Notes under the pieces: generated by a model
The model's input: the letters and a program-made list of their open reading frames with translations, nothing else
Databases searched by the model: none
Told to the model about the DNA's origin: nothing
Assembly: GCA_051294375.1 (NCBI GenBank)
Contig: CM119269.1
Span: 21,127,665 to 21,191,664 of the forward strand
Direction of reading: 5' to 3'
DNA: 64,000 nucleotides
Origin: Paraspadella gotoi
Lineage: Eukaryota > Animalia > Chaetognatha
Shown here: piece by piece, positions 1-55,541 of the stretch
Layout: each line of letters begins with the position of its first letter
How positions within the stretch are numbered: the first letter of the stretch is position 1
Position numbers and translations under genes: made by a program

Positions 1-261
1 ACCAATCATACCTTCTTTCGTATAAATAGTAAATAAAGCATTAATTATCGTAAAATATATATATTTATATTGATATATATAATATATTATATTGGTTGTA
101 CCAATTTCATATATATATTATTGTCAATTTTTTCCGTCATATTCAATAATTGAGTTAGAATAGGTGAGCACGAAACACCGAGATTTACCCTGTATTTCTG
201 GCCAGAAAAAAAAGGAAAAAAAATTGTGGCGTACAAGTACAACGTCGATTCCGGTCCAAAC

Positions 262-2120
262 CTCGTTTTCGAATCGCTGCTTCCTCCTATTTTTGAGCAA
301 CTGCATCCTGAACTCGTTCCGCCCCTTCTCGTTGCTGAACTGCGCCGACAAAACACCCAACACGAGGTTCAGCATGAAGAAACTTCCCACGACGACGAGA
401 GGGAGGAAGAAGAGCCAGTTCCATCGGTTGCCGAGGGCGTCGTCGCACCAGTACATCACGTCCGTCCAGCCCTGAAGGGAGACGGAACAAGAATTCATCG
501 CTTGGCAAAATATACTTACAGATTTACTCTTCGGATATTCCCTTTCCGGACGTCGGTAACGTAATTTAGTGCAACGGTCTAACGGGTCATCTTTGAACCT
601 CAACAAAGAATGGCAATTCCAACCAAAGTGGCATTCGTTATTAGGTTGACAATTCACATTTGTATGAAATTGGTCGACCAATATAAAAATTATCCATTCA
701 TTTAATAAATAAGCTATCTTTAAGGACTCCATCACACTTGCAAGATAATAACATAACAGGTTTCTGCAAGCTTTTAATCAAGCCTCTCTCACAGACTTGT
801 TTATTCACTCCCAGTGAACCTGGCTTCCCTATCAATGAAGTGGTATAATATTTCAAAGAATGTTTCTTTTCTGTATTTATAAAGAATGGTATGGTATTTT
901 TACTCAATGAGTCACCGGGTCACAACTGAAGGTGTTATGCTTATAGACTACATACACGTCAAAAGCTAAGTATTAAGTACGACAAGATTAAAATGCGAGT
1001 AGAACGGACAAAGTGACTGACCGACACAAAAATGATTTATGAAAATGTGAGTAGAATATATATATATACTTATAAAATGTGAGTCGAACGGACAAACTGA
1101 CAGACCGACACAAAAATGACTTATGAAGTTGCACACTGAAAAGCGAGTATTGGGAGATCAGATAAAAACCCTGGAGAAAAAAAGTGCCATATGGAAAGAC
1201 CTCCATGGTGAAGCATTGGAAGACGGTGAGAAGGGCGTTGCCGATGTTGTCGAAGGAGGTGATGCCGAAGTTGGGCCCCGTCCATCCAGGTTGGCAAGAG
1301 GAGATGTTGCGTGGACAGATGTTCGCCCCTGATACGATTACAAGGGAAAACTTTTTTTTTTTAAATTAACTAGAAATTAACTAGAAACAAATAATAGATG
1401 ACTTTTGCTAGGGTGTTTTTATTTTAATAAAAAAAAGTTAATTGTTTTAAGAAAATGTCATCTGGAGTCAACTCTCCTCCTACAATTAAATTATCAATTG
1501 CTCAACATTAGCCCATGAGCTAATCGTTAAACGGTATTTGGTTTCCTTGATTCGCAACATCACCCGATGCCTCGTCGTTGTCGAATTCGCTCATGAAACA
1601 TGGCCGCTCCTCCATCAACTGATTTGAGACGCGACCTTCGAGGATCTTGAAGCATCCTTGATGGAACACCCCCATGTAGGACTCCATGCCCATGATGGCG
1701 AAGATGAGCGTCGCGAAAAGAATCAGCACTCCCACCTGAGGCGGGAAAACAGTACAATACCGGGTCTTTCGAGCAACTGAATTGTAATAAAGAGACGTGT
1801 CTCAATATTATAATATATTATTTAAAAGCTGAAAGCTAAGGACTTTAATATTGGAGTAATGAATGTCAAGACATTAACATACTAAAATGAAAGCTAAAAA
1901 CGTTAGAGAAGAAAAAAAAATTAGAGAAGAAAGGAAAAAATAGAGAAGAAAGGAAAAAATAGAGAAGAAAGGAAAAAATAGAGAAGAAAGAAAAATAGAG
2001 AAGAAAGAAAAATAGAGAAGAAAGAAAGAATAAAAAAGAATAAAAGAATAAAAGAAAGTATGAAAGAATGAATAAATGAATGAATGAAGAGAAAGAAAGA
2101 AAGAAAGAAAGAAAGAATGA

Positions 2121-2188
<68 letters not shown>

Positions 2189-3097
2189 AAAAAAGGAACG
2201 TTGTGCAAGATGGATCGACCTGCGCCAGCGGAATCGTCGCTCTTAAAATAGACGACATGACGACGTGTAACGAAGGAACTCCGCGGATGAGTTTGAAGAG
2301 TCGCAAGACGCGCAAGGCTCTCAGGGTCCGAAGGTTGACGGCGACGAGACCGGGAATGACGCCCATGACGCCGGTGACGACGACGACAAAGTCCAAGACG
2401 TTCCATCCGTTGCGAAGGTAAGATCCGGGATGAAGCAATAAGCCGAGGGCCAATACCTAAAATAACGGATTGCCGATGATTTGAAACCATTTGTCTTTGA
2501 GAATATTACCCACAAAGTTTTACTCTTTCATCCCTAAAACCAACCTTGACGATCAATTCGAAGCAAAAGATGACGAGAAAAACAATCTCCGCCACGTGCA
2601 AAGCCTCAGTCTGTTTCGCCGAAACTTCGTCGTTGTTGGGAAGATGTACCTGAGTAGAAGCGACCAAATTACGAATGGGTGATTGTAAACGTGGAATTAC
2701 TTGGCGGCCGGACAACTAGTAAAAATAAAATAAAATAATAAAAGAACAAAGATTGGCCACGCCTCACCTCTGCCATCATGACGACGCAATTGGCGAGAAT
2801 GGCGGCGAGAATGAGGAACTCGAACCACTTTGAGGCTGCGATTCGATTCGCGACCACGCCCACGCAGTTTACAGGCGAAAAGATGAAGAGCGCCCGCGGC
2901 GGCGCCTCCGTGTTGGACGCTGGGCGCTGCGGCGGCGGCGACGCCGTCAACGCCTCCAACCGACGCGCGAGTCCGATTCCGCGATGCTCGATCTCGGCGC
3001 GCGCCGATTGGGCGAAGGTCGTCGTCGGCGCCGGGTCGCGTTCGAACGCCGGGTGAGTGCCGGTTACCGGGCGGAAGGAGCGAGGGGAGCGTTTCAT
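262..3097 (-). CDS. Cav2: Voltage-gated calcium channel alpha-1 subunit, Cav2 (P/Q/N)-like; N-terminus and domain I, partial (continues beyond window start)
   Basis: Phase-consistent GT-AG exons 3097-2768, 2649-2545, 2456-2220, 1735-~1564, 1328-1201, 471-262. Encode [15 protein letters not shown] (IS1), [17 protein letters not shown]4 [15 protein letters not shown], pore [22 protein letters not shown]|GWTDVMYW (filter Glu) and IS6 [19 protein letters not shown], which is Cav2-type. Confidence 0.93.
1905..2195. repeat. Purine-rich (GAAA)n microsatellite in Cav intron
   Basis: GAAA and AGAGAAGAAAGGAAAAAAT tandem units. Confidence 0.95.
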
Positions 3098-6065
3098 GGT
3101 GAGGGTGGTGTTGTGGGGGCGGGGATAGTTAGATGACCGAGATCAATTGACACAGATGACAAAAAAAGTAATCGAACGTCGCTTTTCAAAAGAAAACGTT
3201 CTGGTGAGGTTCGAGTGAGTTGGATTGTGATCCCAGTCGACGCCCTTGGCCAGCGACCAATGTTGACTGCGACTTCCGCTTCAAATTTTTCTTTTTCTTT
3301 TTCATATTTTCGTGATTCGAATCTCTTTTCGAATCTTTCTCTGGGTCGTCCCTACGTTTAATCGCTCAAAAGTTACGCGATGTTTTTGTTGTTTTTGTGG
3401 CGTCTTTTATTTTGTACGAAAAAGTTAGGGGAGACAATTTTCTGTTAAAACATTCTCTTCTTCCTAACATCACAGGGTCCAACTCGTTTAATTCTAAAAG
3501 AGACGACAAAGAGGTTGTTTGTTTGTTTGTAATCCGGAGATCGTTTATTATCCAGAGATCCAGATAAAAAAAAAAAACATTAAAAACCCAGAAAATACAA
3601 GTACTTAGGATTTCCTTTGACTGATTTGGCAAATGCGGATTTTCGTTGTTTACCTTTTCATTGTGGGTCTGGCAGGCGCCTTTCTATACTTACCGCTCCC
3701 TGGAAAATCTTCGGGGAAAAAAAATTTGAGTGAAAACCAAGTCGACGACGACGACGACAATGGCAACGATGACAGTCACCACTACAATTTAAACGTTTAA
3801 ATCTTTGTTTGGCAAGAAAGCGATCGACAATTAGCGTCGAGATGACATCCCCTCAACACTGTGGTGACTGACATCGAGACAGAAACCAATTAATGAACAT
3901 TAGCGAGGAAAAAAAAAGTTGTGATCGACGGAGCTGGGGGCTGGTTGTCTTTTCGCCTCTTTTCGGTCTCCAGGCGAAACGTTTAAATTGACGAGCTCGG
4001 TCTTGTTGTATCGATTATTATCGATTATTATACGCTCTCTCACTACTCTCTCTCTCTCTCTCTCTCATTTTCTTTTCTCCGCTTTTCAGGGGTCGGACTC
4101 TTGAACGCCTCTGTCGTTTTCTAGACTAACTCGATTGAGTCGTGGGGTGTTTTTATTATTTCATTTCTTTTTAATTTCTTTCTCGCCGCCAGGGTTGTTA
4201 GAACTTCTTCTTTCCTGCGTTTTTCATTTCTTTATCTTCCAAAACGATCTTTCTTTTACGGCGGGAAATTGTTCGAGCATTTCTCGACTTCAAAATCCCC
4301 CGTTTCATTAAATTACTAAAAAATCTTAAGCGGAAAACAGGTTTTTTTTTTAATTATTTTTATTCTTTAGAGACAACATTAATGAGCAAACTGTGAAACA
4401 TAATGATAGAAGGACAATAAATAACTAATCATAAATAATATAAATGTAAAACTACGTAAAATGACACCGCATGCAATGTAATATTTTTTTACCCTGAATT
4501 TTTTCTTTCGATCGTTTTTTTTTTTTGTTTTTATTTTTTTAGTTTTCGTTTTTAGTTGTTTAGTTTTTTTTTTTTTGATTTTATTATTTTTTTTTTCAAG
4601 CTTTTATAGTTATATTTCGGAATCTCGACCGGTTGTCTTTTCCTCTTATCTAACCATCGTCACATTGCTCTTTTATCATTCGTTTTCCCATGTCTCGAGT
4701 TCACCCTTTATCTAATAAACCTATTAAAAAGAAAAAGGGCAACTTTTACTTTCGCTTCAGGGTCGTTCCACGTCGTTTGTACTCTGCCAAATCTCCTCTC
4801 ACTTAAAAAACAAGATACAGCAAAGAAACTCTGATACATAATTGGATTAAAGAAATCCTCTCTATTTTATAACTTAATCCTGCAGCAAATGAAAGCACGA
4901 AATGATTCACGCTTGATAAAAATCCGAACTCCAAAGTTTCCCGCTTTAATTTAATTTTCTTTCTCTTTTTTCTTTTTTTTTTTAAGGGGAAGGAGATATG
5001 ATTAGTTTTATTTAGTAAGGAAACAATTAACAAAGTATCCGAGAATTTTTTTTTTTCAACGCAATGTGCCGAAAAACTACTTTGATTCGGGAAAAAGCGA
5101 TTGAGAGTAATAAAAAAGTTATCAGTAAATATTGCAATCAAAGTTTTTTATTATTCAAAACCCAAACTTATTAGGATGAGTCACGTTTAGCAAAATGCTA
5201 GGTTCAAATACAAACAAGTAACAAAAAGTTCGTTTTAGTGAAGTTCACATAGTTTGTTTTTTTTCTGCGAGAGACAACGAAAATTTTTTACCTTGTTGGC
5301 AGTTATGAAATCTCTAAGATTTGGAAGGATCACAACGAAAGTTTATTTGCATAATCCTAGATTTTAGATTTCATTTTATTATTCTTAACTTAGCCTCAGT
5401 CTTAGGTTCTTATCTTGGAAAGAAATATTGCAAATGAATAAAATTTAAAGGTTACATTTTTGTATTATTAAAAAAATTCAATACAAACAATGTACATAGT
5501 AAAAGATACGTTACGAAAATGCAATTGTGGAATGTATATATGGGAATACATATATATATATATATGGGAAACGGGTGAGAGCGGCGACTCAGGAAATGTA
5601 CCCGATACAGCAACAATTGTATGTGAAAAAAAACTCTTCTATTATAGGTGACTCAGAATAAAACTTTTATTCCAAAACAAAAATTTCATTTTCTACAATT
5701 TTTTTTATTAAATTAAAAATTAAGGAAAGTAGTAATTAAATACTGGGATAAAACTAATTACTGTATAAAAATTTAATTCAGAGATCTTTTTAAGTTTAAT
5801 TTAGGTTTTTTTACTCAGATCTGGTTTCACACCTATTGTTACTTTGTTGCACATTGATAAGCTTCCACTCAAACATGCTTTTGCCAAATCTGGTTGCAAG
5901 CAAACCAGTTGAACCAATAGTTGCGTTCAATGATCGTTAAAAAACAGGATTTACGATTTGTCATTGGGAAACCGGTTCCGTAAATTTTAATGTTTTCATT
6001 CTCCGCACCATCCCTTCCTGATTTACCGAATTTTTTATCCCCTCTTTCTCAACAAAAATTGTAAA

Positions 6066-9000
6066 ATGTTTGCTCCTTCCGTCCGCTCCTTTTCCTTTAT
6101 CTTTTTCGGCGTCGCTTTCGTTGTCGTTGTCGCTAATAATTCAACGGAGTCTACTAACGCGACAACGCCAACGCCCACACCCACGCCCACGCCGTCGCCA
6201 ACGCAGCCCCCTCCTTGCGTTCTCAAGCAATGCTCCCTCAATTCCGACAACTGCACCGAAGTCAATGGTCAGGCGAAATGCAACTGCAAAGCTGGATACG
6301 AAGGGGACAGGTGTTTCGACGCAGAATTGCCAAAATGAGAAACTTTTTTAAAAATTTTACGAGTAGAATAAAAAATTTTATATTGGTTGTACCAATTTCA
6401 TACAATCCTTTGACGGTGTTGTGGCGAATCCTAAGTTCCCGATTCAATCCCCTCACGGTCACGCTGGTTAAAGTGTGATGGTGTCGGCATAAACACGCCA
6501 GTGACATGGGGTGGTCACAGCGAGCCCAAAGCCCTGAGCGCCAGCTGTATTGAGATGCCTCAAACCCCGGTCATCACACTTGTCTCTTCGTTGCCATAGT
6601 GTCACGATTCGTCATTCTCAGCTTACGCCGTAGCAACGGCTAAAGCTGGGTTACAAAACGAACTTCATACTAACTTTAGATCGACTCTCTCCAGCTCTAC
6701 GCGCGGGCGGAATAGAATGGGTGGGCTTAGGGACGAGCACGAAGTTTTTCAGAGCTCTTCTTCGAAAATAAAGCCCTTAAGCAATAAGCATTCCAGGCAT
6801 ATGTGTAATGCGCCGTGATACCTAACAACAAATTAGGCTCGCAAGACAAGAACAAACATCTTGGCTAATTCAAACTAATCCGTTCTGTATGGCACTGCGG
6901 GGCCGGATTGCCGGAAATTCCCGGGACAACTCGGTTGACGGCTCCTCCCACTGGCGCGGTTAAACCAGTTTCGTCACACTTTTCGGATGAAAGCGTGGGA
7001 ACAGTGATCGATCCCTGGCGCTGCTTTTCGAATCCTTTTTTTTTTTTTTTTTTGGTAATTTTTTTTCTTCCTCCGTTTAGATGTGAATTAGACATCAATG
7101 AATGCAATCCTGATCCCTGCAAAAATAGTGGCTCTTGTCAAAATGAAATCGCAAAATATACTTGTAAATGCCCGGACAATATATATGGACGAAACTGCGA
7201 CACCAGTAAGTGTATCAGTAGTCATTTGTAAGGCGAATTGTAAAAGATTAAACCCGATGAATTTTTAGTTGGGTGCGTAGCTAACATATGCAAAGGGCAA
7301 GGAACGTGCAATGAAAATGCTGATGGTAGTTTCAATTGTACATGCAACGAGGCCTTTGAAGGAGAAACTTGCGAGTTCGGTAAGGGATTTTTCTATCACT
7401 GTACTCCCGACGGCAAGATTGGTTAACATATATCACTCCAACACTTTCTTATTGCTGTTAGTCAAGCGTCCGTGTGATAGTCAGCCATGCCACAATAAGG
7501 GCAGCTGCGTAAAGACGGCCCCAGGGAAATTCCAATGTTACTGCGCTTCGCCTTGGGGTGGAACCCAGTGTGAAGCAAGTGAGTCAATGTCAATGACGAA
7601 GTATATTAAACGCATTAAGGGACGAGGTAAAATTTTTTTTAAAAGTTATCAGAAATTCATTTATAGTCCGATTTAATTACTTTTAATCAGAGTTAAATAG
7701 GGTCAAATAGTAAACGAGTTGCATCTGTTACGATCCAATGATGGTAAACAATAAATCCAAGCAAATCAATCAATATCGAGAAATTGGTATAACCAATATA
7801 AAAATTATCCATGTAATTTCTGGTAATTTTTAGAGGAGTGTCCGTTCGGGACGGGAATTATTCGCGTTCTGTATTTGGACAACGTTGAGCCCTTCGTATT
7901 TCGCAAAAAAGACGTGACTGTGAACGATACAGCAACTCTTGATACACTGGATGGATATTGCATCGATCTCTTCCGGTAAAATATTCATTTCAAAACTTTT
8001 TGTCGGGCCAGTCTTTATTTTTCATAGGAGAAAAACTTTTTAAGATATGATATATTTATGTACTACGGCGAAATATAAATAAAACATTTTAGAAGTAAAC
8101 AATAATATTAGTTCTAAACAAGTTGGTGCAAACAATGTCGGATCTGCCCTCGATAATTTAATGATGATCAGATGATAAATTATGATAAATCTTGTAATAT
8201 TTTTTTTAATTTAAATTTTAATATTTCTAATTTTTGGTCATTGATTGATGCAATGAGAGTCATTTATTTATGTTATTATAATCATTTAATGATGCAATTA
8301 TAATCAATAATTGATGGATGCAATGATATTATTTAATAATGCGATAATAACCATTCAATGATAATAATTATCCAATAATGCGATCATGGTCATTAATTGT
8401 TGCGATCATAATTATTTATTGATACGATGATAATCATTCAATGCGATTATTGATGCAATGATAGTGATTTAATGATGCGATAATAGTAGATGCAATGGTA
8501 TTCGATAAATGAAGGACACATCAGAAAGAGAGAGAGAGAGAGAGAGACATAACAAATCATAACAAATTTCTTAATAAATCAATAAAGGAATCTATAAATA
8601 AATCATTCAATCAACTGATCAATCAGTCAATCAATAATTATAACTGAGAGAAAGAGAGAGAGAGAAACTTTAAAATTTAAAAAGAATTCAAATTTTATAA
8701 ATGTGACATTTTTTTTTAACTCTTCCACTCATACGATTCCATGCAAACTTAATATCCAGCTCAATCACACACTTTCCTATATATATTTCATATTTTATAT
8801 TTCATCTCGATCCATCCATCCAATTCAAGTAAATATTATTTTACTTTATTTACTTTACTAATTTCCACTCGGACGATTCCATCGAAACTTTAAATCCAGC
8901 TTGATCATACAGTTTCCTACCGGCACACAAAATTTCATCTCAATTCATCCATATAATCACGAGTAATCACAAGTTTTTTGCTAAGGTGGGATGTACACTA

Positions 9001-12000
9001 AGACAGACAGACAGACTGATGGACGGGCAGACGGACATATTTTTTTTGGGCATAATTTATCATAATTTGATTATTTACCGACAAGCTTTTGGGGTGGGAC
9101 CGACGGACCGACAAAGTGGATTATAGAGTCGGAATCTGCAGACAAACAAATCTGATTAAAAAGAAATCGAAACCAAACGTTTATCGATCCCTGACGGTAT
9201 TATTCAAAAAGCGACTGAAGGTGACATGCTTATAGGCGGAATAAACTTTTTTGCAATGCTCGTCTTCAGGATGGAAATACAGACTTTGTTTTTTTAACAT
9301 ACAGAATAATGATGGAAGACTTAAACTGCCGCAATTACGATCTGAAAGCAGAAAAAGAGGCTGGGATTCATTTAGATGATGACACTTTTACCGGAATCTT
9401 TGGAAAGGTCCATTTCAATTTATTTATCCATGAAATTCCTTTTTTTTTATCTAAAAATTCGTTGTCATTTTGTTTTCAACATACCATTTTAAAATATTCA
9501 GTTGATCAACAACGAAGCGGACATGGCCATCGGCCCTCTCACCATCAACAAAGCCCGGGCGAATAAGGTGGACTTCACGCGGCCCTGGCAAACTCTCGGC
9601 ACAACAGCCCTCATGAAGCGACCCCAGCCTCAGCAGTTTTACTTCCAGTTCCTGCAGCCGTTCGGGTCCAGACTGTGGGGCTCTCTTGCGGGCGCCATGG
9701 TGTTCTCCGCTTTGTGTTATTGGATCATTGTCTTCTTGCAGAACAAACTATTAAGCAGTGAAGAGGAGGTAAGTGGCATCAATCAAGCAGTGACTCAATA
9801 TTCACTTATTCACATATTTTTTTTGTCCAAAATATGATGATAGTTTACATTTGTATGTATCATTTTGGTGGAGATAAACCTGGGTTTCGGGCAATGCTGG
9901 AGAGCTTGTTTGCTCGATTTCAAATTCTCCGCCGCATTGAAAGATAATTACGAAAGATGCGCGCTGATATGCGACGCCGAAATGAGCTCTTCGTCTCCTA
10001 GGCGACGCCCACCCGATGCCAAGCTGCTGTACGGTCGCTCAAAAGACGTCATCCCCGAATTTTTACTTCACGAGCGACGTCACGGTCACCCCTTACTTGC
10101 CGAGAGACAAGGACCGCATACTCTCAATAAGCAAATGATTCTCCGAACTCGGTAAAAAGAATTATGAGCAACTACGTAGAAGCCACAACTAAAAGAGATC
10201 TGCAAACTGAAGGTGGAGGAAGCAAGGGCCGTCACCTACAAGGCACATGCTAAACATGTCGAACCTACAAGGCACATTGCTGATCTCTCGTTCATCCCGT
10301 TCCTAGAGAGAAGCACCATCGCACTCCTCTGCGGAGAACTGCTCGTAACAGCCTCGTGTGACCTTGCACTGGCACAGACGTGGACAACAGCTGCTTGTTT
10401 CAAAGACCTTACATAAGGTTCAGGGGCAAAGCCTTCTTCCGTCATGCCATTTACCGCCAAATTGTGCAGACCTCAACACTGACAAGCTGCAACACCGCCT
10501 CCTATCTACATGCAACGCGGTATTTGCAAAACAAGATACGATGAAGTCATCCACAACTACTCAGAGATCTCCTCCGACCACCCTGGACCCGAGAGAGAGA
10601 GACCTGAAGATCCAATACCACAACTACCAGGCCAAAGTTCAAGACTTCAACAACAATAAGGACAAGTACAGACACGGCGCAACTTACTGAAGCATCAAAA
10701 AGCTCATAGGGAAAATGTCTGACTGGGAATGGTTAACTGACCGCCTGACTCGAATCCCACTGACAGGGTAAGGAGGGTCACAACGCAGGAGAATCAGCCT
10801 CACCCAAAAAAGAAACCGGAGGATCTGGTGATCGCCTCAGAAATGGAATCGCCGTTTCATGATTGGTCGAGGTGGTACCGGAATCGACCAATCAGCGTGC
10901 ACAATCAATGGAACCGTCAAAATAACTTTGGCCTCTGATCCTCTCCTTCAGATATAAATATAAATAAGCTTGTTTCAGTAGAATCGATCTGGACTCCTGC
11001 GTGTCTCACCGTAACTTTTTATCTCAGAATAAATCTCGATTTGATTTCGTCTTAGAAATCCATGAGTTTTTCCTTAAATGATATACTTAAGATATACTTT
11101 ATGATTATATTGGTTGTACCAATTTCTTATCATTTTAAACAAATTTTTAGAAATATCAAAACAGACCCAGAATTAAATTTAAACTCTTTTAAATGATCAA
11201 ATATAGGTCAAAAGAAACCATAATGAAAACAAAATGATAATAAGGAATTGTTTTTCAAATGACATACACATTGTCCAAAAGGAGGACAGAAAATAACGAA
11301 ACAAAATTGCTTAATAATTGTGTTCAGGTCAGATTCCTGGAATGTATTTGGCTGACGGTGACTGGCGTCTTGGGTCAGGGTCATGACCCGATGCCCGAGG
11401 GTCTGCCCATTCGTCTATTCAGCGTCGGATGGTGGATCCTCATCTTCATTGGTACCAATTGCTACGTGGCCAATCTCGCTGCTTTCATGACCGCCAATCA
11501 GATTACCTCCACGGTTAGCGACGTGGACGAATTGGTCAAAACCGACAAAATATGGGGATGGACCGAAACGGGTTGGTTTATAATTAAATTAGAAAATTCT
11601 CGAAACGCCTTTTTACTTGCGGATCTCTCACTATTTATAGGAGCCACTTTCGATTTCTTCGCCGAAACCACGGTTGAGCGAATTAAAAAGTTGCAAACAT
11701 CCGTGGACGCCCGTTGGGGGGGAGGCTCACTCTTTAGAGACGAGTGGGAGGCCCTTAACGCGGTTCAGAATCAATTATCGGTTGGAGGAGAAAAGCAGGA
11801 TTACGTCTATTTCGCCGACAGCCTCGAGCTTCTATATCACGCGCAGAAAAATTGTGATCTCATGGTCATTCCGGAAGTCATCAATGAGGTGCAGAATTCG
11901 CAGGGAAATGTTATTGTCTGGTGGCTCTTTAACCACAGACGCAGCGCCTCAGTGGAACAGAGGACTGAAGTACCATCCTTATTTCGAGCCTTAACGTGGC

Positions 12001-13853
12001 CAATCGGGTGAAGTGAAAGTTTGGAATCAAAATTTAGCAGTTATATCTTGAAAACTATCATATTAGTGAATACTAATCCGTAGTTTTTTTAAATTTTTTT
12101 ACGTATATTGTAGCCCAGTCAGCTCATTTTGTATATAGTACTACCCTAATATAATGTCCAAATTTTAAATTTTTTTTTCAAAATTATAAGAACAGATTCA
12201 GATTCCTCATGAAAAGTTGATAAAAGAAAATATAAATCTTTTTTCGAATATTATGTCATTTAGTAGGTTAAAATTACAAAAAACTATATTTTTAAGCTGG
12301 AAATTAAAAATCGGTATCTTAAATATAGTTTTTTACATTTTTGACCAACTTAATGAAATGATTTTCAAAAAAGAATTCTACTTTTTTATATCAACTTTTT
12401 GCAATGAATCCAAATCCATTCTTAAAAATTAAAAACTTGCATAAAAAATTTTAGCCTATTATATACTTATTTTTATATATAAATATTGCTAAATTTACTA
12501 AAATATTTTTATTAGTTTTTATTTTTATGTTCTATATGCTAAATTTAAATTTTATTATTTTCACATCACTCTAGTGGCCCATGTAGAAAGTGAGATGGGT
12601 GGGTTAGCTCGCCGTCATGCACGGGCCTGTCGCTAGATCCAAAGCTCAGGACTAGTACATGAACAATTAAACATTCTACCTCTCAATCGCCAAGTAGTGA
12701 ATACTGGTGATACCGCACAGGATATGGCGCCCTGTGAAACCAGCAGCTTCAATAGTTTTATTATTTATAGGTTTAATTTTTAAAGTTTCTCCCCGAGTCT
12801 GTTAAATGACTCGTGTATTTTTGACATCCTTTATTCATATTTCTGTTAGGATTAGCGAATAGTGAATTAGTGATTGGTAAATTCTCTTCTTTGTAGTTCG
12901 GATACGGTTTCGCACTAAGACGGGATCCGATCAATGACAATTTAGGAAAGGTAAGTAAAACTAAAACTTGATCCTTTTTCACCCAAGCTTGTGGGGTTAC
13001 ATACAAATTTGGGGGAAAAAACGGTTTTGTAAAATTGAAACTAAATTGAAACTTTATTTGGTGAATATTCTTGGACTATATTTTTATAAATAATACGTGT
13101 GCTAAAGATTAAATATTTTATACATATTATATTTATTTTATTTATTTATTGATTAAATTTACATAACTTTTTTTATCAAATTTCTAAACAGTTGATGAAA
13201 GTTCTCAACGAGGAAATTTTAAAATTGAGCGCCGAAGGTTTTTTCAAATCAGAAAGGAAAAAGTGGTTCAGCGACGAGCACTGTGGCGAACAGGTAAACA
13301 AACTCCTTTGGAGAAAAAAAACGTGCGGGTTGTGTTTTTTATTTCTTTAATATTATAATATTAATTAATATTGGTTCAAAATATTATTATATTACCTATT
13401 AGGTAATAAAATGACAATAAATGCTCTTTTGAAAAATGGTTCCTGAGCATTAAAAATAGTATGAGTTTCTCACATTCACGCATGAAACATTTTCATGTCA
13501 TACGCGCTTTGCAGGGTTGAGGCTCTCAAGTCCCTATAAAAGTATAATTCTATCATAATTTCGCATAGTTTTACTTTTAACATTTTTGAATTTTCTTATC
13601 CGAAGATAAAGAGACATTTGTTTCTTCTTTTTACTTTCTCGAACAACAGTCAGGAGGCGAGACCCACGTCGAAATGTGGGTGAGCGACTTCGCCGGCGTC
13701 TATTTCATTCTCATCGGTTTTCTCGTTATCTCACTGATTTCCCTCGCAATTTTGGCGTTGATCAAAACCTCCGACCTCTCCCGAGGGAACAGCGTTTCTA
13801 GCGACAGCAGTGCCAACAAATGCGAAGAAAAACAAAATAGCAACATCATTTGA
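6066..13853 (+). CDS. Ionotropic glutamate receptor-like channel with N-terminal signal peptide, Thr/Pro stalk and 4 EGF repeats in place of the ATD
   Basis: Exons 6066-6310, 7081-7205, 7269-7379, 7462-7578 (EGF), 7834-7975, 9305-9407, 9502-9768, 11328-11571, 11641-11888, 12897-12950, 13192-13293, 13650-13853; all GT-AG and phase matched. iGluR hallmarks: DGYCIDL, ADMAIGPLTINKAR..VDFTRP, FLQPF..LW (M1), GQG pore loop, CYVANLAAF (M3), FGYGFAL, KKWF...C, FAGVYFIL (M4). Confidence 0.88.
6410..6605 (+). mobile_element. SINE family B copy
   Basis: B-box-like TTCAATCCC then GGTCACGCT..GGCATAAACACGCCAGTGACATG..CGTTGCCATA; matches 50565-50726; relatives at ~15540-15712 and ~6885-7030 (-). Confidence 0.65.
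9862..11062 (+). mobile_element. Possible degenerate LTR-retroelement remnant in iGluR intron 7
   Basis: GC-richer insert; starts CA-TTT-TGGTGGAGAT (PBS-like), broken ORFs, purine tract then TG...CA segment (~10826-11062) with TATA and AATAAA; no matching 5' LTR or RT motifs. Confidence 0.3.
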
Positions 13854-14486
13854 ATCGGAGGCCTCCCTGCAAAATTAAATCAAACGAAGAACGAACCTTT
13901 GAACTTTTTTGAAATGTACACTGCACAGTATCGGCAAAGAATGAATGAATGATAAAAAACTTGTACAAATTATGTACTGTACATTGTTCATATGTTGTTT
14001 ATCAAAACAAGAATACAATTTATTTCTAGCAATTTGTAATTTAGATTCGGCTTTATATATTAATTTAAAAAATCAGAAAATATTACAGAGACAACTGAGC
14101 GAGACAAAGTTAGGGGAAAAAGGCAGAAAGTAAATCATTAGCCCAGCTTTTATCTTCTTTATTAATTAATTCTTTCTGATATTCAAAGATAAACTTAGAA
14201 AAATAAAAATACGCATAAACAGGTTTTTTTTTTCACAACCTTCGAGCTGCGACCATTGGAGCTAAAAGTTATTTAAAGTCTGCTTTCTCTAAAATACTCT
14301 TGGTCATTATGTAATTCGAACAGCCGTGGCTCCTTCGTGAACTCTTTTGATTTTTAAAAGTAGATCGCTTCTACAAGATTCAAATAAAAATCATTTCAGT
14401 TTGTTCTACTCGTATAAACAGTAGACACTGAATAGTGACTAATAATAAAAAATCATTTACAAGGACAACGAGCCTTTTAATTTATT

Positions 14487-16604
14487 ATGTCTATCCTCGA
14501 CTCAGAAAATGAAGAAGTTAAAACATTAAAGCTGATTAGAGAAAGGTTCTCAACTCTTGGATATGCAAGTAAGTTAACTTCGATATTTTGGTAATTATTT
14601 CAAACAAAACTAAGGCTGTGAATTGGAATTCGTGCTGTGAAACATTTTTTCATCAAATCCGATTAACAACTCGTAGTTAAAAGTAAAAACCTTCATTGTA
14701 TGGATTTTTTAATTCTTTGTGTGGATTATTCAAAAAAAAAAAACATAATTTTTAAAAAAGCTAGTGACGTTAAAAGCAGAAAACATATCGCAAGAAAACT
14801 ATATCTTAAATGTTTATCAGTTGGCTCTGGAGTCATTGCAGCAGCAATTTCTGGCTTTCTCCTCCAATGTCGCCAACGAGGATTTCGAAATGTCATCACA
14901 GGTAATTCATTATAAATAGTACACTAAAGTGGGATTTTAACTTGTAGTGCTGTTTAGAATTAGGTCGACACTCCTCTTTATACAGTTATACCAATTTCAT
15001 ACTTAATACGAATCTATTTTCAAGAGTGAAATCAGGGTCGGCGTTGGCTTCCTATTCTTTTATTTAGGGGTTTCTCTTCCTCGCGATATGTTGTTCTACG
15101 GAGGAATTTACTTCGCCGGCGACTTGTCGCAACAATTCCTAAGACGCGGTCCAGATAAAGGCGAGGCGGATGGAATCTTTCGCGGGGTCGATTTCCTTCA
15201 CTCGGCGAGAATTGGACTCGTGACCACCACTTTTTTCGGCCCTGGTTTTCACAAATTGTATCGCTTCATGGATAGGTGAAATTAAAATGACAAGCATTTT
15301 CTTTAGAAACCAGTGTTTGACGTAAAATTTTTACACTCATTCTATATTATTAAGGCCTAATGACAGCATTGATGAAAGAAATTTTAATATCCAGATAGAC
15401 TTATTTCTTTATAATATTAATACCGAATCAACTTTAAAAAATCTTTAAAGCCGCTTTTGCGTTAAAACTTTTTCAGTGATAAACCGAACCAACGTAGTTT
15501 AAATTTAAAGAGTCGCGTGGCAAATTTGCCTCACCGCTGTCCTGCCTCGACTCAATGGCTGAATCATCGAGACTCAACTGTGCGATCCGGGTTCAATCCC
15601 TGCGTATCCAGGGTCTGTCCTAAATGTGACGGAACCGGTTTAAACATGCCAGTTACAGAAGGCGGATGGTGAGATACCCCACGCGGGTATCACTATCTCC
15701 GTTGCCATAGTCACCAATATAAATATAAACACGTAACGTAGCGAATCAACAGACTCGAACCTTCGGCTCTCAATCTCTCAAATTACTTATTTTAGACGAT
15801 GGCCAGGAAGAGATTTCCGCACGGTGGCGTTAAAGGTTTCGCTCGACCAGCTCCTCGGGACAGGAATCGGTCTCGGAGTCTTTTTTACGTCGCTCGCTGT
15901 CCTCGAACAGCACGACGACTACACTGCAGACGTTCGGGCGAAGTACTTCCCCGCTTGGATCAGCGGTGCCATCTTTTGGCCAACAGTTAACATGTTCAAT
16001 TTCAGGTACGTATACAGAGCATCTTAGGCGACTTATGATCGGTCTCTCCCTTTAAACCCGATCAATCGTATGTCGCCTCAATCTGAACGAATGGAGATTA
16101 TAAAAATGTTAGGAACATTAGGATGAATATTCAAAGTCGCATATAAAAAGCATGTTAAGCAGCTAAATTTGAGGCAAAGTGAAAAATAGTCACAAAATAG
16201 GGCAACAAGAAAAATAAAAAGGAGGGGAAAATGGCAACAAAAAAAAAAAAACAAAAAAAAAAAACACAAAACGACATTGATGAATGACGGCTAGGAATTT
16301 TCGGTTAACTGAGTATTAAATTTAAAATTTCGTGTTGTCTTTCTTTCACAAGGGTCCAACAAAGGTCCAACGGGCGTCAAAAGCCTAAGAAAAATACGTC
16401 ATGGCTTTAAAAATAGTTTTTAGACGGGGAAAAATTCTATGGTTGAGAATTGGATTATTTAATTAAAATATTGAAATCATTAATGAACTATAATTTTTTA
16501 TTTGCAGATTTGTTCCATCGCAGTATCGCGTGATTTACATCTCTTGCGCAGCTTTCGTCTGGACAAACTTCTTGTGCTACCTCAGAGATACATATTCCGC
16601 TTAA
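14487..16604 (+). CDS. Mpv17/PMP22 family membrane protein
   Basis: Exons 14487-14568, 14821-14901, 15068-15275, 15796-16005, 16508-16604, phase matched. Motifs GDLSQQ, FFGPGFHKLYRFMD, KVSLDQ, FWPTVNMFNFRFVP..YRV...A.FVW..FL.Y. First two exons less certain. Confidence 0.88.
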
Positions 16605-33733: not shown

Positions 33734-35290
33734 ATGGCAACAACTAAAGAAGTTTTTTTGCCCTCGTCATCCTCGTCCACGTCGACGCCAAGACCGCCTT
33801 CCGGCCCCGTCGCCCGCCACCCTCCTCTCGACGGGGGTTGGGGTTGGGCCGTGGTCGTCGGGTGCTGTCTCTTTCACATCTGCATGGCGGGGATCCACAA
33901 GAGTTTCGGGGTTCTCCTCGTCGGATTCATCGAACGATTTCCTGACGCCTCCGTCGCCGCCATCTCAGGATTCGGCGCCGTCGCTTTTTCGCTCATCCAC
34001 ATAGCGGCGCCCATTGCGACTTTTCTAATCCGCCGCGGGGCCAACTGCAGAACTACGGTATTAAGCGCCGGTGCTTTGATGGCGTCTGGATGTTTCGCGA
34101 GCGCCTTTGTGACCAACGTAGCCGGGCTCTACTTTACTTTCGGCGCGTTCGTGGGCGTCGGTCTGGGCATGGGCTACACTTCTGGAATGGTCATGGTCGG
34201 AACGTATTTTGAAAAGCGCCGCGGCCTGGCAATGGGAATGGCGACAGCTGGTAGCGGCGTCGGTGGCCTCGTTCTTGCGCCAGTCTGGAGACGACTCTTC
34301 GATGAGTACGGCTACAGGTGGACGTTGCTGATGGTTGGCGCCGTGATGCTGCACGTATGCCTAGTTGGGTCTCTATACAGACCGATCGAAGACAATTACC
34401 CCGAGAAAAGATCTTCGCATGATGTGTCCAAGCATCGAAAATCAGTTTCAGTAGACGTTTCAAAATCAACCTCGGGAGCGGTCGAATGCCTCCGTCGTCT
34501 CGGCTTTGACGTCACTATTATAAAAGAAGCCAAGTTCACGCTCTACCTCTTGGCTTTCAATTTAACTGCACCGGCCATGATCGGCTCGTGGGCGATGACG
34601 CAGCCGCTCGCCATTTCTACCGGGATTTCGTCCAACGACGCCGCCCTTCTCGTCTCCGTCAACAGCGTATGCGACGTTTTGGGTAGAGTTGGAGCCGGCG
34701 TCTTCAGCGACGTTCACGCGGTCAAGGTAGTCGCCGCTTTATCTTATATGTATCACCTAATAAGTAAAAACTAATATTCCTAAAAGATTTATAGTAAAAA
34801 CCGGCGTTGTCTCGCTAAATTTGTTTGGTCAGCGTCATCGCCCTCTCATCCTGGCCGGTCTCGCTCTCCTTCACGGTCTCGCGGACATTGCGGTCATTGC
34901 AGTGTCTTCCTTTGTCGGATTCGCCGTTTACAGCGTCGTCTACGGTCTTCTTAACGGATCCGTCATCGCCTCCCGAGCAATCGTCTTGCAGGTGGGGGCG
35001 TCTGAGAATTAAGTCTTATCCCGACACCATTCTCTTACATCCTTTTCTCCCTGACCCATTTCCCCCAGGACATTATGGGCGGAGAGAATTTGGCCAACAC
35101 TTTCGGTCTTTTCAACTTTTTGACTGGATTCGGTCTTTTCGCCGTTCCGTTGATTTCGGCGGTGCTGGCCGACACTTTCGCCTCCTATCGGGCGCCGTTT
35201 GTTTTTAACGGCACCATCGTAATCATCGCCGCCGCATTCCTCGCTGGGACGGCGCTCATTCATCGATCACATATCGAGAACCATCGTTAA
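33734..35290 (+). CDS. SLC16: Monocarboxylate transporter (SLC16/MCT, MFS)
   Basis: Exons 33734-34726, 34833-34991, 35069-35290; signature PPLDGGWGWAVV, YFEKRRGLAMG, YGYRWTLL, GRV..G. Confidence 0.94.
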
Positions 35291-41858: not shown

Positions 41859-43570
41859 CTACGTGAAAGCAATAATAGCGACGGCGACTGTTAGAAGTAC
41901 GGAAGACCGAGTCCTAGTTTTCGATGAGCGTGATCTCCCTTTGGGAGCGACCTCGTTTTCCAGCGAACTCGGTTTCGTCGTCTTTGTTTTCGGTGTCGTT
42001 TCTTTAATCGTCGTCTCTGTGGCCATCGTCGTCATTCTCGACGTCTTTGCATCGTCGACGTCGGTGGAATTTAAAGTGACAGAAGTCCCATTCGCGATAG
42101 TAATTGCTAGGTATTACAAATAAATTCAAATGAATTTGAGAAAATTATTTACGATTGTCATCCCGTACGTACTTGTTAACGTGCTCTTGGTTGAGCTTGA
42201 GGTTGAGATCGCGGTCACGTTGACCAGAAAAACGATCTGCCGTTTTTCTCCATCTTCATTTTGTACGACGTCGCAGGCGTAGATCCCCGCGTGTCGTCGC
42301 TCGACCGGGACGATTTTGAAAGTCACCGAGGGCCGAGTCCCAGTTGTTCGACCCACGATTAGCCCCTGTTGGACAATAGGCATTAGGCAACGGAGGGTTA
42401 AAAACTAGTAAAGCCAAAATTTTAAAAGACGATTTCCCAACGTTCATTTATCTTGATACCGAGTATTTTGGAGAAAAATTCTTGATGTCTGTCCCGAGAG
42501 CGATGATCTTCCAAGTTTGGCTCTTAACGTGGAATTCTTGAAGGCGTGGTTCTTCTCCTTCGCATTCCATTCGAAGGGTCTCGCCCTCGGCGGCAACCAG
42601 GTCTTTGACTGTAATACAAAAAAAAAAGTTTTTTGTTGAACAGCGGTTAAATATGAGTAGCCATCGATCGAGATTATTGATCCTCACTAGAGTAGGTCGA
42701 GTTACTAAAAACATCAACGGGTTCTGTAGTTGTAGACGCGGCGCTGCTGGAAATCACAGTAGAGGTGGCGTTGATTTCAACTGTGGCTGAGGAGCTGTAC
42801 TCGACACGAACGTTGAAAATTTGCTTCACAAGGAGACCGTCCGAGTCGCATGAGTATCTGCCGGTGTGAGACGGAGTGACCGGCTCAATTTTGTAAGAGA
42901 ACGTCCTATTGTCAGCTGAGACTTTCACCATAAGGTCCTAATAATATAAAGGAAAAGTCCCACAATAATTACAAAATGAAACTATATATTTTATAAATAA
43001 CATGTATTTTCTTCCTTTTTCTGATTTACATAAATAAATAGTATATGCCTAATTGACCAATAAAATATATAATCAATTAGTGCGATGCGATAATCGTTTC
43101 TTTTTTGTTGTTTTTAGTTTTAGAGAAAGCAAAGTATTTTTAAAATTATTACAACGATTTTTATTTTAATTAAGACTTCAAGACTTCAAGCCTTCATCAG
43201 CATTTGACATTCAGTAAAAAAAGTTGGAAAACTTTTACCCCGTCTCTCTCTTTCTCTCTCTCTCATACTCTTCTTTTACACAAACTTTTTACTGAATGTC
43301 AAAGGCTGATGAAGGCTTGAAGTCAACAAGCCGAAACATGTCCATCTCTTAATTAAAATAAAAATCGTTGTAATAATTTGAAAAATACTTTGCTTTCTCT
43401 ATAATCAATTAGAAAAACCAAGAAATTACCGCGAAAAGCTGGGAGTAAGATACGATGTTAATGCCCCTAGCGACGATTTCATTTTCTTTCTTGAAGACAG
43501 GAATAAACAATGGGGAATTGCGGCAGTCGAAAATGAGTGGCGAACCCGGAAGAGCCAAAATATCAGTCAC
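41859..43570 (-). CDS. Two Ig-like domains, Thr/Ser-rich stalk and C-terminal hydrophobic (GPI-signal-like) tail; own first exon not found
   Basis: Approximate exons 43570-43431, 42937-42688, 42608-42460, 42366-42172, 42106-41859; Ig Cys pairs LIFDC...HTGRYSC and LRMEC...HAGIYAC; ends SSVLLTVAVAIIAFT*. Confidence 0.8.
43306..43342 (+). ncRNA. Minimal type I hammerhead ribozyme motif (Penelope-like element type)
   Basis: CTGATGA-A-GGCTTG(aagtcaa)CAAGCC-GAAAC-ATGTC; palindromic ACATGT stem III, GUC cleavage triplet. Confidence 0.75.
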
Positions 43571-53800: not shown

Positions 53801-55541
53801 TTATGAATTATGTGCATTTTTAACTTAAGTGGGATAGACCGACGGACAGACCGACCGACGGACAGACCGACCGAAAAGTGACTAAAAGGTTTAGGAAGAG
53901 ATGTCGCGTCGGCAATTTTAAAGAAAGACCAGTGGCCGCGCCAATACAACTAAACTAATGTTTCAGGATAAAGGAAAAAAAATTTGAACAAAATTAATCT
54001 GGAGCTCATTGATTAGTAATTTGTATTAAAAAATTGGTTATTATAAAATAAAAGTTAAACCAAATTTCTTTACAATTTTTATCAGCATTACACACTTTGC
54101 TCGCAAAGTTTTCCCGTGTAGCCACTAGTACAGCTGCAGTGAAATCCAGGAGGGCGGACCTCTTGGCAAAATCCATTGTTTTCACAGGGATCTAAGGCAA
54201 AATAATTGAACGTAATAGGAAGGCGAATGACAATAAAAAAAGAGAAAAACCACTACTGTATAAACTTTAGCGGAAAAACTTATCTCGCACCAGAAGCGCA
54301 TTCGTTGATATCACGCTCGCAAAAGAGTCCTTCATATCCCTGCGCGCAGGCACAGGTGACGCTATCAGTGCCGTCGAAACAAGTGGCGCCGTTCCGACAT
54401 GGGGCAGGAATCGTAGAACAAGATGTGAGCGCTGAAAAAGAAGACGAGAATTCGATTTTAACCTCTTTTGTAGATGAGAAAAAAGAATTACTTTATAATC
54501 GACAACGATAGTTTATTATACTTCTTTTGTTTAACTAAAATATTATTTTTAGGTTTACGAAACCCGAGGATTTTGGCTTCGGTTATAAAATAAGTATTCT
54601 TAATAATAGGGTAAAACATTTTTGTGTATAAGAGACTACGGCAATCCAGAACCCAATCTATTTCTATCGTTATCTCTCTGACCATTATTCACCGTATTTT
54701 ATTTAATTACTGTACTAATTTAGCTTCATAAAAACTCCGAACGTAGTCATTAATGCGTCGTCAATATAAATAATAATCTGTCACTTTATTCGGTTATAAT
54801 AAAAAGAAATTTACAGTTTTTTTTCATTCATTGATATTTGATATACCATTTGTAATTCTCAGGTTGTGAGAATTTCTCTCTTCACTCCGACGTGAAATTT
54901 AGCGCCTGAGTCATAACTTTCAAGAAAGACAAGACGAGAACGAGAAAAAAAAAAGAAGGCACAAAAAATGAATGTCTTCCGAGTACGTTGCCTTCTGGAA
55001 TCTTGATTTTTTTTTCACTTCAATCTCTCCGGGTCCCAATTTTGATAATCATGATACAATCAGGATAATTACTTCACGCAAACCTACGCCGAGTGCAGTT
55101 TCCAGCGGGACCCCATCCGGGCTTGCAACCAAGAACGCCCTCAGAAGAACATTGGAAGTTTCCGTATTCGGTGCAGAATGTTTCGCAGCCTACGCCATAA
55201 TAATCTTTAGCGCAGAACAACTGGAAAAATAGAAATAATCGAAACGTTGATGTTGAGAGAAATCTCGCCAAGATGCTTGCTTACTTACTCACCCGGATTC
55301 TTAGTCTTAACTGGGTGTAGCTGTCGATGATGCTCGGAGGAAAAACTGTGATGAAGTTGGCCGAAGATTCATCCTTTGCCAATGGAATCAACGCTCCGTC
55401 GAATTGGTAGAAGTCCACCAAATCATTCCCTTTTTTTATCGTTTCTACCGTTTAAAGAATAAATAATTAATTATAAAATAAATTTAATAAACATTTACTT
55501 TAGTAATTCTTTGAGGAAAGAAAGAAAGAAAGAAAGAAAAA

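What the first reader, a model, noticed from the sequence alone, without database searches (positions are those of the whole stretch)
6066..13853. EGF-repeat ionotropic glutamate receptor: ATD replaced by a mucin-like stalk and four EGF modules
Seen: the fourth EGF exon ends GAA GCA A|gt (7578) and the next exon starts ag|AG GAG TGT (7834), joining ...TQCEA-K-ECPFGTGIIRVL..DGYCIDLFR in frame; only 255 nt separate them. The EGF exons have no stop or TM of their own and the LBD exons have no signal peptide or ATG of their own, so one gene is the simplest reading. Established: animal iGluRs carry a ~400-aa LIVBP-like ATD, and most insect IRs have only a short N-terminus. EGF2 has the calcium-binding consensus DINEC. 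Inference: a ligand-gated channel with Notch/adhesion-type EGF repeats could be tethered trans-synaptically or to matrix, or modulated by a protein or mechanical input. I do not know a described receptor with this architecture, but cannot search for one.
Basis: partly seen in the sequence, partly recalled or inferred. Interest (0 to 1): 0.9.

Follow-up and report, generated by a model that had tools for sequence, protein, structure and literature searches.

The report
Glutamate-receptor channel with EGF-repeat arm
An unidentified invertebrate animal has a spliced gene for a glutamate-receptor-type ion-channel subunit whose usual outermost domain is replaced by four Notch-like EGF repeats, which likely tether a glutamate-gated channel to a neighbouring cell or the matrix, a design I found neither among its nearest database relatives nor in the papers searched.

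Summary
Twelve GT-AG exons (6066-13853) give an open 653-aa protein: signal peptide, 27-aa Thr/Pro tail, four EGF repeats, S1, M1, pore loop, M3, S2, M4, short tail; no ATD. One contig of a public run (X1, RNA by guess) carries the 7578/7834 splice with 118 letters on its short side, runs from an in-frame upstream stop into S2, and matches at 100%. So it is one spliced gene, on one run's evidence. It keeps R485, D705, G653, T655 and Y732 (glutamate-type pocket), a pore loop with Gly at Q/R/N, and a near-canonical M3 gate. It has lost Y450, T617 and two M4 residues that AMPA homotetramers need, so it may need partner subunits. Nearest iGluRs are about 27-30% identical; none of the best 150 carries EGF; the subfamily is unresolved. 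ATD-less iGluRs are known; EGF in the ATD's place was not found in the papers searched, but no full domain-architecture search was possible. The 'stalk' is a short distal tail. Channel activity and the tether role are inferred. Verdict: new variant of a known family, one gene, one species.

The parts
5980..6065 (+). 5' untranslated leader, with in-frame TAA at 5988-5990
   Evidence: Covered by X1 record 1 from 5980; stop in frame with ATG 6066
6066..6310 (+). Exon 1 coding part: ATG, probable signal peptide (aa 1-23), Thr/Pro-rich tail (aa 24-50, three N-glycosylation sequons), EGF1 cysteines 1-5
   Evidence: (EGF_3 E 7e-5, below cut-off)
7081..7205 (+). Exon 2: sixth Cys of EGF1, then EGF2 (calcium-binding type: DINEC, beta-hydroxylation consensus, O-fucose consensus)
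   Evidence: Pfam EGF 26.3 bits, above cut-off; best PDB matches Notch1 and Delta-like 1 EGFs; motifs
7269..7379 (+). Exon 3: EGF3, symmetric phase 1-1 module, O-fucose consensus
   Evidence: Pfam EGF_2 24.0 bits, above cut-off; phases; joints
7462..7578 (+). Exon 4: EGF4, symmetric phase 1-1 module, O-glucose and O-fucose consensus
   Evidence: Pfam EGF 22.2 bits, above cut-off; single-sequence model pLDDT 80 with EGF-like hairpins; motifs
7579..7833 (+). Intron 4 (255 nt, phase 1): the EGF/ligand-binding-domain joint
   Evidence: GT..AG joint in X1 record 1, 118 letters on the short side; stops in the exon-5 frame inside the intron
7834..7975 (+). Exon 5: start of S1 of the ligand-binding domain
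   Evidence: Pfam Lig_chan-Glu_bd weak, E 0.074; aligns to iGluR S1 start
9305..9407 (+). Exon 6: S1 (position 450 is Ala, not aromatic)
9502..9768 (+). Exon 7: S1 with P478, T480, R485; pre-M1 and M1
   Evidence: Pfam Lig_chan-Glu_bd 41.8 bits; PDB GluN1 E 3e-11
11328..11571 (+). Exon 8: M2 pore loop (Gly at Q/R/N, Asp at +4), M3 gate (Val at 617), start of S2
   Evidence: Pfam Lig_chan 61 bits on the ORF holding exons 8-9; PDB GluK2 E 4e-10
11641..11888 (+). Exon 9: S2 with A654, T655, D705 and the first conserved disulfide Cys (G653 codon spans intron 8)
12897..12950 (+). Exon 10: S2 with Y732
13192..13293 (+). Exon 11: end of S2 with the second conserved disulfide Cys
13650..13853 (+). Exon 12 coding part: M4 and about 30-residue cytoplasmic tail, TGA at 13851-13853
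   Evidence: Hydropathy peak 3.07; X1 record 4
13854..13985 (+). 3' untranslated region as far as the contig matches
   Evidence: X1 record 4 covers 13645-13985

Best explanation
This spliced gene encodes an ionotropic-glutamate-receptor subunit in which four EGF repeats stand where the amino-terminal domain normally is; it likely works as an amino-acid-gated (probably glutamate-gated) cation-channel subunit, probably together with partner subunits, and its EGF arm likely anchors the channel to a protein on a facing cell or in the matrix. Shown: exon structure, splicing, domain order, absence of an ATD. Inferred step 1: the clamshell closes on glutamate (R485, D705, G653, T655, Y732 kept) and pulls the M3 gate open on a pore loop with Gly at Q/R/N and Asp at +4, which would give a cation current with weaker polyamine block. 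Inferred step 2: it needs partners, because the ATD and the M4 Gly and Glu that AMPA homotetramers need are gone. Inferred step 3: the EGF arm (one calcium-binding, three with O-fucose consensus) takes over the ATD's job of binding extracellular partners and fixes where the channel sits. Inferred origin: shuffling of phase-1 EGF exons onto the phase-1 intron in front of S1, long enough ago for the four repeats to diverge to about one-third identity.
For: Splicing across EGF4/S1 in one contig that runs from the leader into S2. All channel elements present in order and aligned to 70 iGluR cores; 35 of 47 near-invariant columns kept, including R485, W578, G588, P593, Y616, A618, N619, L620, A622 (numbers are GluA2 positions assigned by motif, from recall). 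Passages of PMC6307864: R485 plus an acid at 705 fix the amino-acid backbone, and G653/T655 mark glutamate binders. Passages of PMC12226733: S653G, I655T, F732Y switch a placozoan receptor to glutamate; most Mnemiopsis epsilon receptors have Gly at Q/R/N; Gly is expected to weaken polyamine block; +4 Asp matters. M4: Phe and Leu stand where 65 of 70 relatives have Gly and Glu; passages of PMC5460951 show that G823A or E834 changes cut GluA2 tetramers. ATDs bind N-cadherin and pentraxins and organise synapses (PMC4576161 passages). EGF2 matches Notch1 and Delta-like 1 repeats best and fits the C3-x-N-x4-Y-x-C4 hydroxylation consensus (PMC8405936 passages). ATD-less subunits exist: IR76b in a solved complex (bioRxiv 10.64898/2026.09.30.755715 passages), amphioxus P0061 and P0095. 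Phase 1-1 EGF exons; EGF-EGF identities 7-12 of 25-33 aligned residues.
Against: No current, ligand, partner or site of expression was measured. The protein is the most divergent row in its set: 35 of 47 conserved columns against 37-47 for the others, though those columns were defined on the others. Position 450 is Ala (Tyr or Phe in 53 of 70), 617 is Val (Thr in 66 of 70), and the LBD dimer-face acids 486 and 755 are Ala. The IR structure paper warns that kept binding residues can be structural only. No orthologue was found, so constraint on the EGF arm across species is not shown. EGF repeats often serve as spacers or folding modules without a partner (recalled). The RNA support is one run whose RNA status is a guess by the tool.
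Confidence: 0.45

Rival explanations
1. It is a divergent chemosensory, IR-tuning-like subunit on a ciliated or surface cell. The EGF arm only replaces the ATD as a folding, trafficking or spacer module and binds nothing outside the receptor.
For: Long branch, no ATD and eroded dimer and M4 faces are what co-receptor-dependent tuning IRs show. A clade with IR76b or with the IR8a/25a group is not rejected (AU p 0.20 and 0.36). It lacks the co-receptor S2 insert seen in P0046. O-glycosylation of EGFs promotes surface delivery (PMC8405936 passage).
Against: The free trees never joined it to the IR rows. Its best blastp scores over the core are to AMPA/kainate-type proteins. Whether the host is a protostome, the group that has IRs, is not known. 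A calcium-binding EGF is more than a spacer needs.
Confidence: 0.22
2. It no longer conducts. It is a GluD-like or co-receptor-like structural subunit or adhesion molecule that uses the EGF arm to link cells, with ligand binding at most tuning that link.
For: Losses at Y450, T617, the W before the S1 helix, E486, E755 and two M4 residues. GluD receptors work as trans-synaptic organisers (abstract of PMC11295041 in listing). IR co-receptors keep binding residues without gating.
Against: The pore loop and M3 core are still well kept (W578, Q587, G588, D590, P593, A618-A622), as are five pocket residues typical of glutamate binders.
Confidence: 0.18
3. The EGF arm is a gating tether: binding to matrix or to a facing cell, or pull on it, opens or primes the channel, so the receptor reports contact or force together with glutamate.
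For: EGF4 ends only about 12 residues before the first strand of S1, so the arm sits directly on the D1 lobe. Cerebellin plus neurexin were reported to permit GluD channel activity (abstract of PMC8694607 in listing).
Against: No functional data. The arm joins D1, whereas the gate is pulled by D2 (recalled). Another listed paper disputes direct GluD channel activity (PMC11295041 title and abstract).
Confidence: 0.1
4. The joined form is an accident: read-through splicing of a small EGF gene into a decaying iGluR gene, or a recent neutral fusion.
For: One run only; no orthologue. Unspliced exon 1 would also end in a complete EGF followed by a stop at 6336-6338.
Against: The joined contig is unbranched from the leader to exon 10 at one depth, while a minor intron-retaining contig (depth 3.7) did break the graph at exon 10. 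The LBD exons have no start of their own. All 24 EGF cysteines and the 653-codon frame are intact, and the repeats are old.
Confidence: 0.05

Closest known systems
AMPA/kainate/delta/phi (AKDF) iGluR subunits, e.g. Lingula GluA-like P0083, nematode GLR-1-like P0097, vertebrate GluK2
   Same: S1-M1-M2-M3-S2-M4 core; R485, G653, T655, Y732; +4 Asp; best overall scores
   Different: No ATD; four EGFs instead; only 27-30% identity; Asp705, Ala450, Gly at Q/R/N, Val617; M4 Gly and Glu lost; M1-M2 loop 12 residues against a median of 23
Epsilon iGluRs (ctenophore P0149, in a cluster with a Bolinopsis protein; Trichoplax P0067)
   Same: Gly at Q/R/N as in P0149 and most Mnemiopsis epsilons; Asp705; grouped with them under LG+G4
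   Different: Epsilons have an ATD and an insertion in the M1-M2 loop; this has neither; the grouping vanished under the mixture model
ATD-less iGluR relatives: insect IR76b and tuning IRs, amphioxus P0061/P0095, Oscarella GluAkdf10/11, protist receptors; vertebrate kainate-binding proteins and GluR0 (last two recalled)
   Same: Signal peptide followed by a ligand-binding domain with no full ATD
   Different: They have a short N-terminus or half an ATD, not a foreign adhesion-type module
GluD1/GluD2 with cerebellin and neurexin
   Same: Working model: an iGluR whose outermost domain links it across a cleft (abstracts in listings)
   Different: GluD uses an ATD and a secreted bridge; here an EGF arm would do it; no sequence evidence of delta membership
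Notch/Delta/Crumbs-type EGF repeats
   Same: Six-cysteine repeats, one calcium-binding, O-fucose and O-glucose consensus sites, phase-1 exons; best PDB matches Notch1 and Dll1
   Different: Only four repeats; no DSL, LNR or other Notch-pathway domain was seen; attached to a channel

Membership tests
Ionotropic glutamate receptor superfamily | Split S1/S2 clamshell ligand-binding domain | tested here: met
   Pfam PF10613 41.8 bits and PF00497 27.3 bits, above cut-off; alignment
Ionotropic glutamate receptor superfamily | M1, re-entrant M2, M3, M4 | tested here: met
   Pfam PF00060 61 bits; hydropathy; PDB GluK2 alignment
Ionotropic glutamate receptor superfamily | SYTANLAAF-type gate in M3 | tested here: met
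   7 of 9 positions as in the consensus; Cys615 and Val617 differ
Ionotropic glutamate receptor superfamily | Arg485 and acidic 705 for the amino-acid backbone | tested here: met
   Arg300 and Asp511 of the model; criterion from PMC6307864
Ionotropic glutamate receptor superfamily | Tetrameric, ligand-gated cation current | not testable with these tools
   Needs expression and recording
AKDF subfamily (AMPA, kainate, delta, phi) | LIVBP-like ATD of about 400 residues | tested here: not met
   No ANF_receptor hit; 199 residues before the LBD exon, all assigned; in-frame stop upstream in the contig. Some amphioxus and sponge members also lack it
AKDF subfamily (AMPA, kainate, delta, phi) | Clade membership on an LBD/TM tree | tested here: inconclusive
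   Outside in the free trees; clade with AMPA+kainate not rejected, AU p 0.28; with ATD-less amphioxus pair p 0.29
Epsilon subfamily | Insertion in the M1-M2 loop (PMC6307864) | tested here: not met
   Loop is the shortest of 71 rows, 12 residues
Epsilon subfamily | Clade membership | tested here: inconclusive
   Near P0149 and P0067 under LG+G4, unsupported under C20 with a long-branch warning; only two epsilon-type rows; no AU test run for this group
IR co-receptors (IR8a/IR25a) | Full ATD and the S2 'beam' insert | tested here: not met
   No ATD; no insert where P0046 has one
Tuning or secondary IRs | Clade with protostome IRs and dependence on IR8a/IR25a | tested here: inconclusive
   AU p 0.20 with two IR76b rows; host phylum unknown; dependence not testable
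NMDA and Lambda subfamilies | Clade membership; Asn at Q/R/N for NMDA | not tested
   No NMDA or Lambda sequence was in the tree. Exon 7 alone scores best on GluN1 (46 bits vs 41 for GluA2), but Q/R/N is Gly, not Asn
Calcium-binding EGF (EGF2) | D/N-x-D/N-E/Q before Cys1 and C3-x-D/N-x4-F/Y-x-C4 | tested here: met
   Both patterns at residues 86 and 101; second pattern as in PMC8405936; first pattern recalled

The most novel reading that the evidence does not exclude
A contact- or force-sensitive glutamate receptor: the four-EGF arm, stiffened by calcium and O-glycans, grips a Notch-pathway-like or matrix partner across the gap and is wired straight to the clamshell, so one polypeptide is both the adhesion molecule and the ligand-gated channel, and it may mark a lineage-wide family of iGluRs with shuffled adhesion modules.
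Probability: 0.12. Interest if true: 0.92.

Novelty: new variant of a known kind. Interest (0 to 1): 0.68.

Why it matters
The ATD is treated as a fixed part of animal synaptic iGluRs, lost or halved in some branches but, as far as I could find, not swapped for another module. A spliced natural receptor with EGF repeats in that slot is a ready-made test of what the ATD layer is for: assembly, allostery or extracellular anchoring. It would show that the anchoring role, which GluD receptors fill with an ATD plus cerebellin, can be rebuilt by exon shuffling inside the channel gene. Its weight is limited by being one gene in one unidentified species, with no orthologue and no functional data.

Tried and rejected
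No whole genome is held, so paralogues could not be sought outside the window; none lies inside it. No holder on record as RNA was listed; X1 is a guess. Word-index homologue searches with the exon 8-9 ORF and with exon 7, longer proteins only, gave 0 of 1728 and 0 of 38 candidates, which is weak evidence. The metagenome scan with exon 7 found no relative among 263 pattern matches. ESM Atlas gave only generic Lig_chan or Lig_chan-Glu_bd fragment clusters, none showing an EGF family; it covers only clusters of 50 or more. A composite EGF-plus-LBD alignment was built as a possible architecture query, but MAFFT stacked the EGFs on S1, so it was not searched. Host identification failed: a neighbouring MFS transporter has named relatives of at most 37% identity, a neighbouring channel exon is Cav2-like by a small margin, Rfam found nothing. 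Trees did not fix the subfamily. The EGF gene at about 45-54.5 kb is not a recent donor: best identities 12 of 27 to 13 of 33 over six open stretches, and only one weak DNA match, E 0.02. A 27-letter loose end of the 3' contig has no match in the window. Earlier-findings look-ups found no like case. The spliced protein could not be folded or modelled as a tetramer, since those tools take only unbroken stretches; only EGF4 was folded. Rejected: 'stalk' (the Thr/Pro stretch is distal), assembly misjoin (an independent spliced contig crosses the joint), a C-terminal PDZ motif (position -2 is Asn; by eye).
Full report
Observation. I rebuilt the gene from the sequence. Twelve exons (6066-6310, 7081-7205, 7269-7379, 7462-7578, 7834-7975, 9305-9407, 9502-9768, 11328-11571, 11641-11888, 12897-12950, 13192-13293, 13650-13853) have GT..AG at all 11 introns and give 653 codons and a stop. 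The order is signal peptide (about 1-23, by hydropathy and eye), Thr/Pro tail (24-50), EGF1-4 (51-197), S1, M1, M2, M3, S2, M4 and a tail of about 30 residues. Pfam on 10 pieces finds EGF families on all four repeats (three above cut-off), PF10613, PF00497 and PF00060 above cut-off, and no ANF_receptor.

Is it one transcript? One public run holds the stretch (X1, Logan contigs, 'RNA?' by guess, 0.39 of sampled words). At 100% identity it shows 10 GT..AG joints that match the model, and intron 1 follows from adjacent record positions. Record 1 (1716 nt, depth 36.9) runs from 5980 through signal peptide, four EGFs, S1, M1-M3 and into exon 10. It crosses 7578/7834 with 118 letters on the short side and includes an in-frame stop 26 codons before the ATG, so nothing coding lies upstream in this form. 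Record 4 (depth 35.4) carries the last two joints. The two meet in exon 10, where a minor intron-retaining contig (depth 3.7) ends; the joint into exon 10 has 30 letters on its short side, one under the tool's bar. The neighbouring gene is also spliced in X1, which fits RNA. Limits: one run, one study; contigs drop rare isoforms and do not phase whole molecules.

Relatives. HMMER over 1.84 billion representatives with the exon 8-9 stretch gave 405 hits at E 0.001; the best 150 are 26-41% identical. Over the whole core the top scores are 27-30% identical, to a nematode GLR-1-like and a Lingula GluA-like protein. None of the 150 matches the EGF part by blastp or an EGF cysteine pattern. Pfam on 60 of the 150 found EGF in 0 of 60 and ANF_receptor in 42 of 60 by my count. 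Signal-peptide-bearing ATD-less iGluRs do occur: amphioxus P0061 and P0095, Oscarella GluAkdf10 and 11 (supplement table of PMC6307864), IR76b and protist receptors. These checks sample near relatives; they are not an architecture search of all proteins. The host is an animal without annotated proteins that I could reach; its phylum is unknown.

Placement. FastTree and IQ-TREE LG+G4 put the core outside the AKDF and IR8a/25a sets, beside a ctenophore and a Trichoplax receptor and one unnamed protein. With the C20 mixture model (22 rows, 415 columns) no supported clade holds it and long branches meet. AU tests reject none of four placements: AMPA+kainate p 0.28, IR8a/25a 0.36, IR76b 0.20, ATD-less amphioxus pair 0.29. 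No NMDA or Lambda row was available. Rows were those covering most of the core (70 of 150), then subsets chosen by me; labels of unnamed rows are mine. Subfamily: unresolved.

Pocket, pore and assembly faces (GluA2 numbers assigned by motif, from recall; counts over 70 aligned relatives). Kept: P478, T480, R485, G653, T655, D705, Y732 and the S2 disulfide pair. PMC6307864 (passages) reads R485 plus acid 705 as amino-acid binding and G653/T655 as glutamate; PMC12226733 (abstract and passages) switched a receptor to glutamate by installing G653, T655 and Y732. Against: position 450 is Ala where 53 of 70 have Tyr or Phe. The pore has Gly at Q/R/N (3 of 70; most Mnemiopsis epsilons) and Asp at +4. 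M3 keeps 7 of 9 gate positions but has Val at 617 (Thr in 66 of 70). In M4, Phe and Leu replace a Gly and a Glu found in 65 of 70; by spacing these are GluA2 G823 and E834, whose changes cut homotetramers (PMC5460951 passages). Positions 486 and 755 of the LBD dimer face are Ala. In all, 35 of 47 near-invariant columns are kept, the lowest of the set, though the columns were defined without it.

The EGF arm. All 24 cysteines are present. EGF2 has both calcium-binding patterns; EGF2-4 fit the O-fucose consensus and EGF4 the O-glucose consensus (the hydroxylation pattern is from PMC8405936; the two glycan patterns are recalled, the passages of PMC9234238 did not spell them out). EGF2 matches Notch1 and Delta-like 1 repeats best in the PDB. 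Exons 3 and 4 are symmetric phase 1-1 modules and the joint to S1 is phase 1, the pattern expected of exon shuffling (recalled). The repeats share only 7-12 identities in 25-33 aligned residues, so the arm is not a fresh duplication, and it is not a recent copy of the EGF gene 31-41 kb away. At roughly 3 nm a repeat (recalled) the arm could reach about 12 nm beyond the clamshell.

Mechanism. I commit to a glutamate-gated cation-channel subunit, probably heteromeric, whose EGF arm anchors it to an extracellular partner, as ATDs do with N-cadherin, pentraxins and, for GluD, cerebellin-neurexin (PMC4576161 passages; abstracts). My odds by step: architecture real 0.95; part of a conducting channel 0.6-0.7; EGF arm binds an outside partner 0.6; jointly about 0.45. 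Rivals: sensory IR-like subunit with a spacer or folding arm (0.22), non-conducting organiser (0.18), tether-gated channel (0.10), accidental fusion (0.05).

Literature. Eight full-text searches aimed at the architecture or the family listed nothing whose title or abstract start describes an EGF-bearing iGluR; most papers were seen as listings only. Passage searches for EGF in PMC6307864, PMC12226733, the IR cryo-EM preprint, the Clytia preprint and PMC6543705 showed only EGFP or unrelated uses where passages were displayed (the five 'egf' hits in PMC12226733 were counted but not displayed). Twelve common EGF motif strings gave no hit in the supplements of PMC12226733, including a 4-MB iGluR sequence file; that file is cut, long sequences are visible only for about their first 400 residues, and control motifs were found. 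One PDF was unreadable and one too large. The library lacks most subscription papers and preprint supplements were closed, so a mention in a genome paper's tables cannot be excluded.

Verdict. The feature is real and spliced. It is a member of the iGluR superfamily by every sequence test run, fails the ATD criterion of the classical subfamilies, and works most likely as a tethered glutamate-gated channel subunit. New variant of a known kind; interest 0.68.

Noticed in passing
window 6066-6338 (+): If intron 1 (weak donor, GTGTTT) is not spliced, exon 1 reads on to a sixth Cys and a stop, giving a 90-residue secreted peptide with one complete EGF; an AATAAA follows at 6367-6372 inside a repeat. 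No contig support was seen.
   Followed up: partly
window 13985: The 3' contig of X1 leaves the window sequence here with 27 unmatched letters that have no match in the window: a distant 3' exon, an allele or a contig-end artefact.
   Followed up: partly
window 12547-12924: A low-depth contig retains the end of intron 9 and runs into exon 10 (depth 3.7), probably pre-mRNA or a minor isoform.
   Followed up: no
window about 120-3140 (-): Exons of a high-voltage-activated calcium channel alpha-1 subunit, Cav2-like by a small margin (Cav2.2 90 bits, Cav1.2 85), head to head with the receptor gene about 3 kb away.
   Followed up: partly
window about 45300-54500 (-), with Ig-like open stretches at 42126-42753 (-): A separate gene with many EGF repeats, possibly continuing into Ig-like domains; not a recent donor of the receptor's EGFs.
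   Followed up: partly
window 14568-16030 (+): A small spliced membrane-protein gene that looks MPV17/PXMP2-like by eye (recalled); two of its joints appear in X1.
   Followed up: no
window 33734-35290 (+): Monocarboxylate-transporter-like MFS gene (SLC16 type); best hit an unnamed ENA fragment at 49%.
   Followed up: partly
protein P0001 (Branchiostoma floridae model BRAFLDRAFT_83648), residues about 22-40: A stretch ahead of an ATD-less LBD resembles the tail of an EGF repeat by eye, but Pfam finds no EGF and the related P0095 starts with a plain signal peptide; probably a gene-model artefact, worth a look at the amphioxus locus.
   Followed up: partly
model residues 202 and 255 (exons 5 and 6): Two extra cysteines near the start of S1 could pair and pin the EGF4 linker to the D1 lobe; speculation, not modelled.
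   Followed up: no
introns 1, 4, 5, 9 (e.g. 6368-6406, 7780-7812, 8833-9139, 12174-12435): Dispersed repeats shared with the rest of the window, including a short element near 7780-7812 inside the EGF/LBD intron and a 260-nt inverted repeat in intron 9.
   Followed up: no
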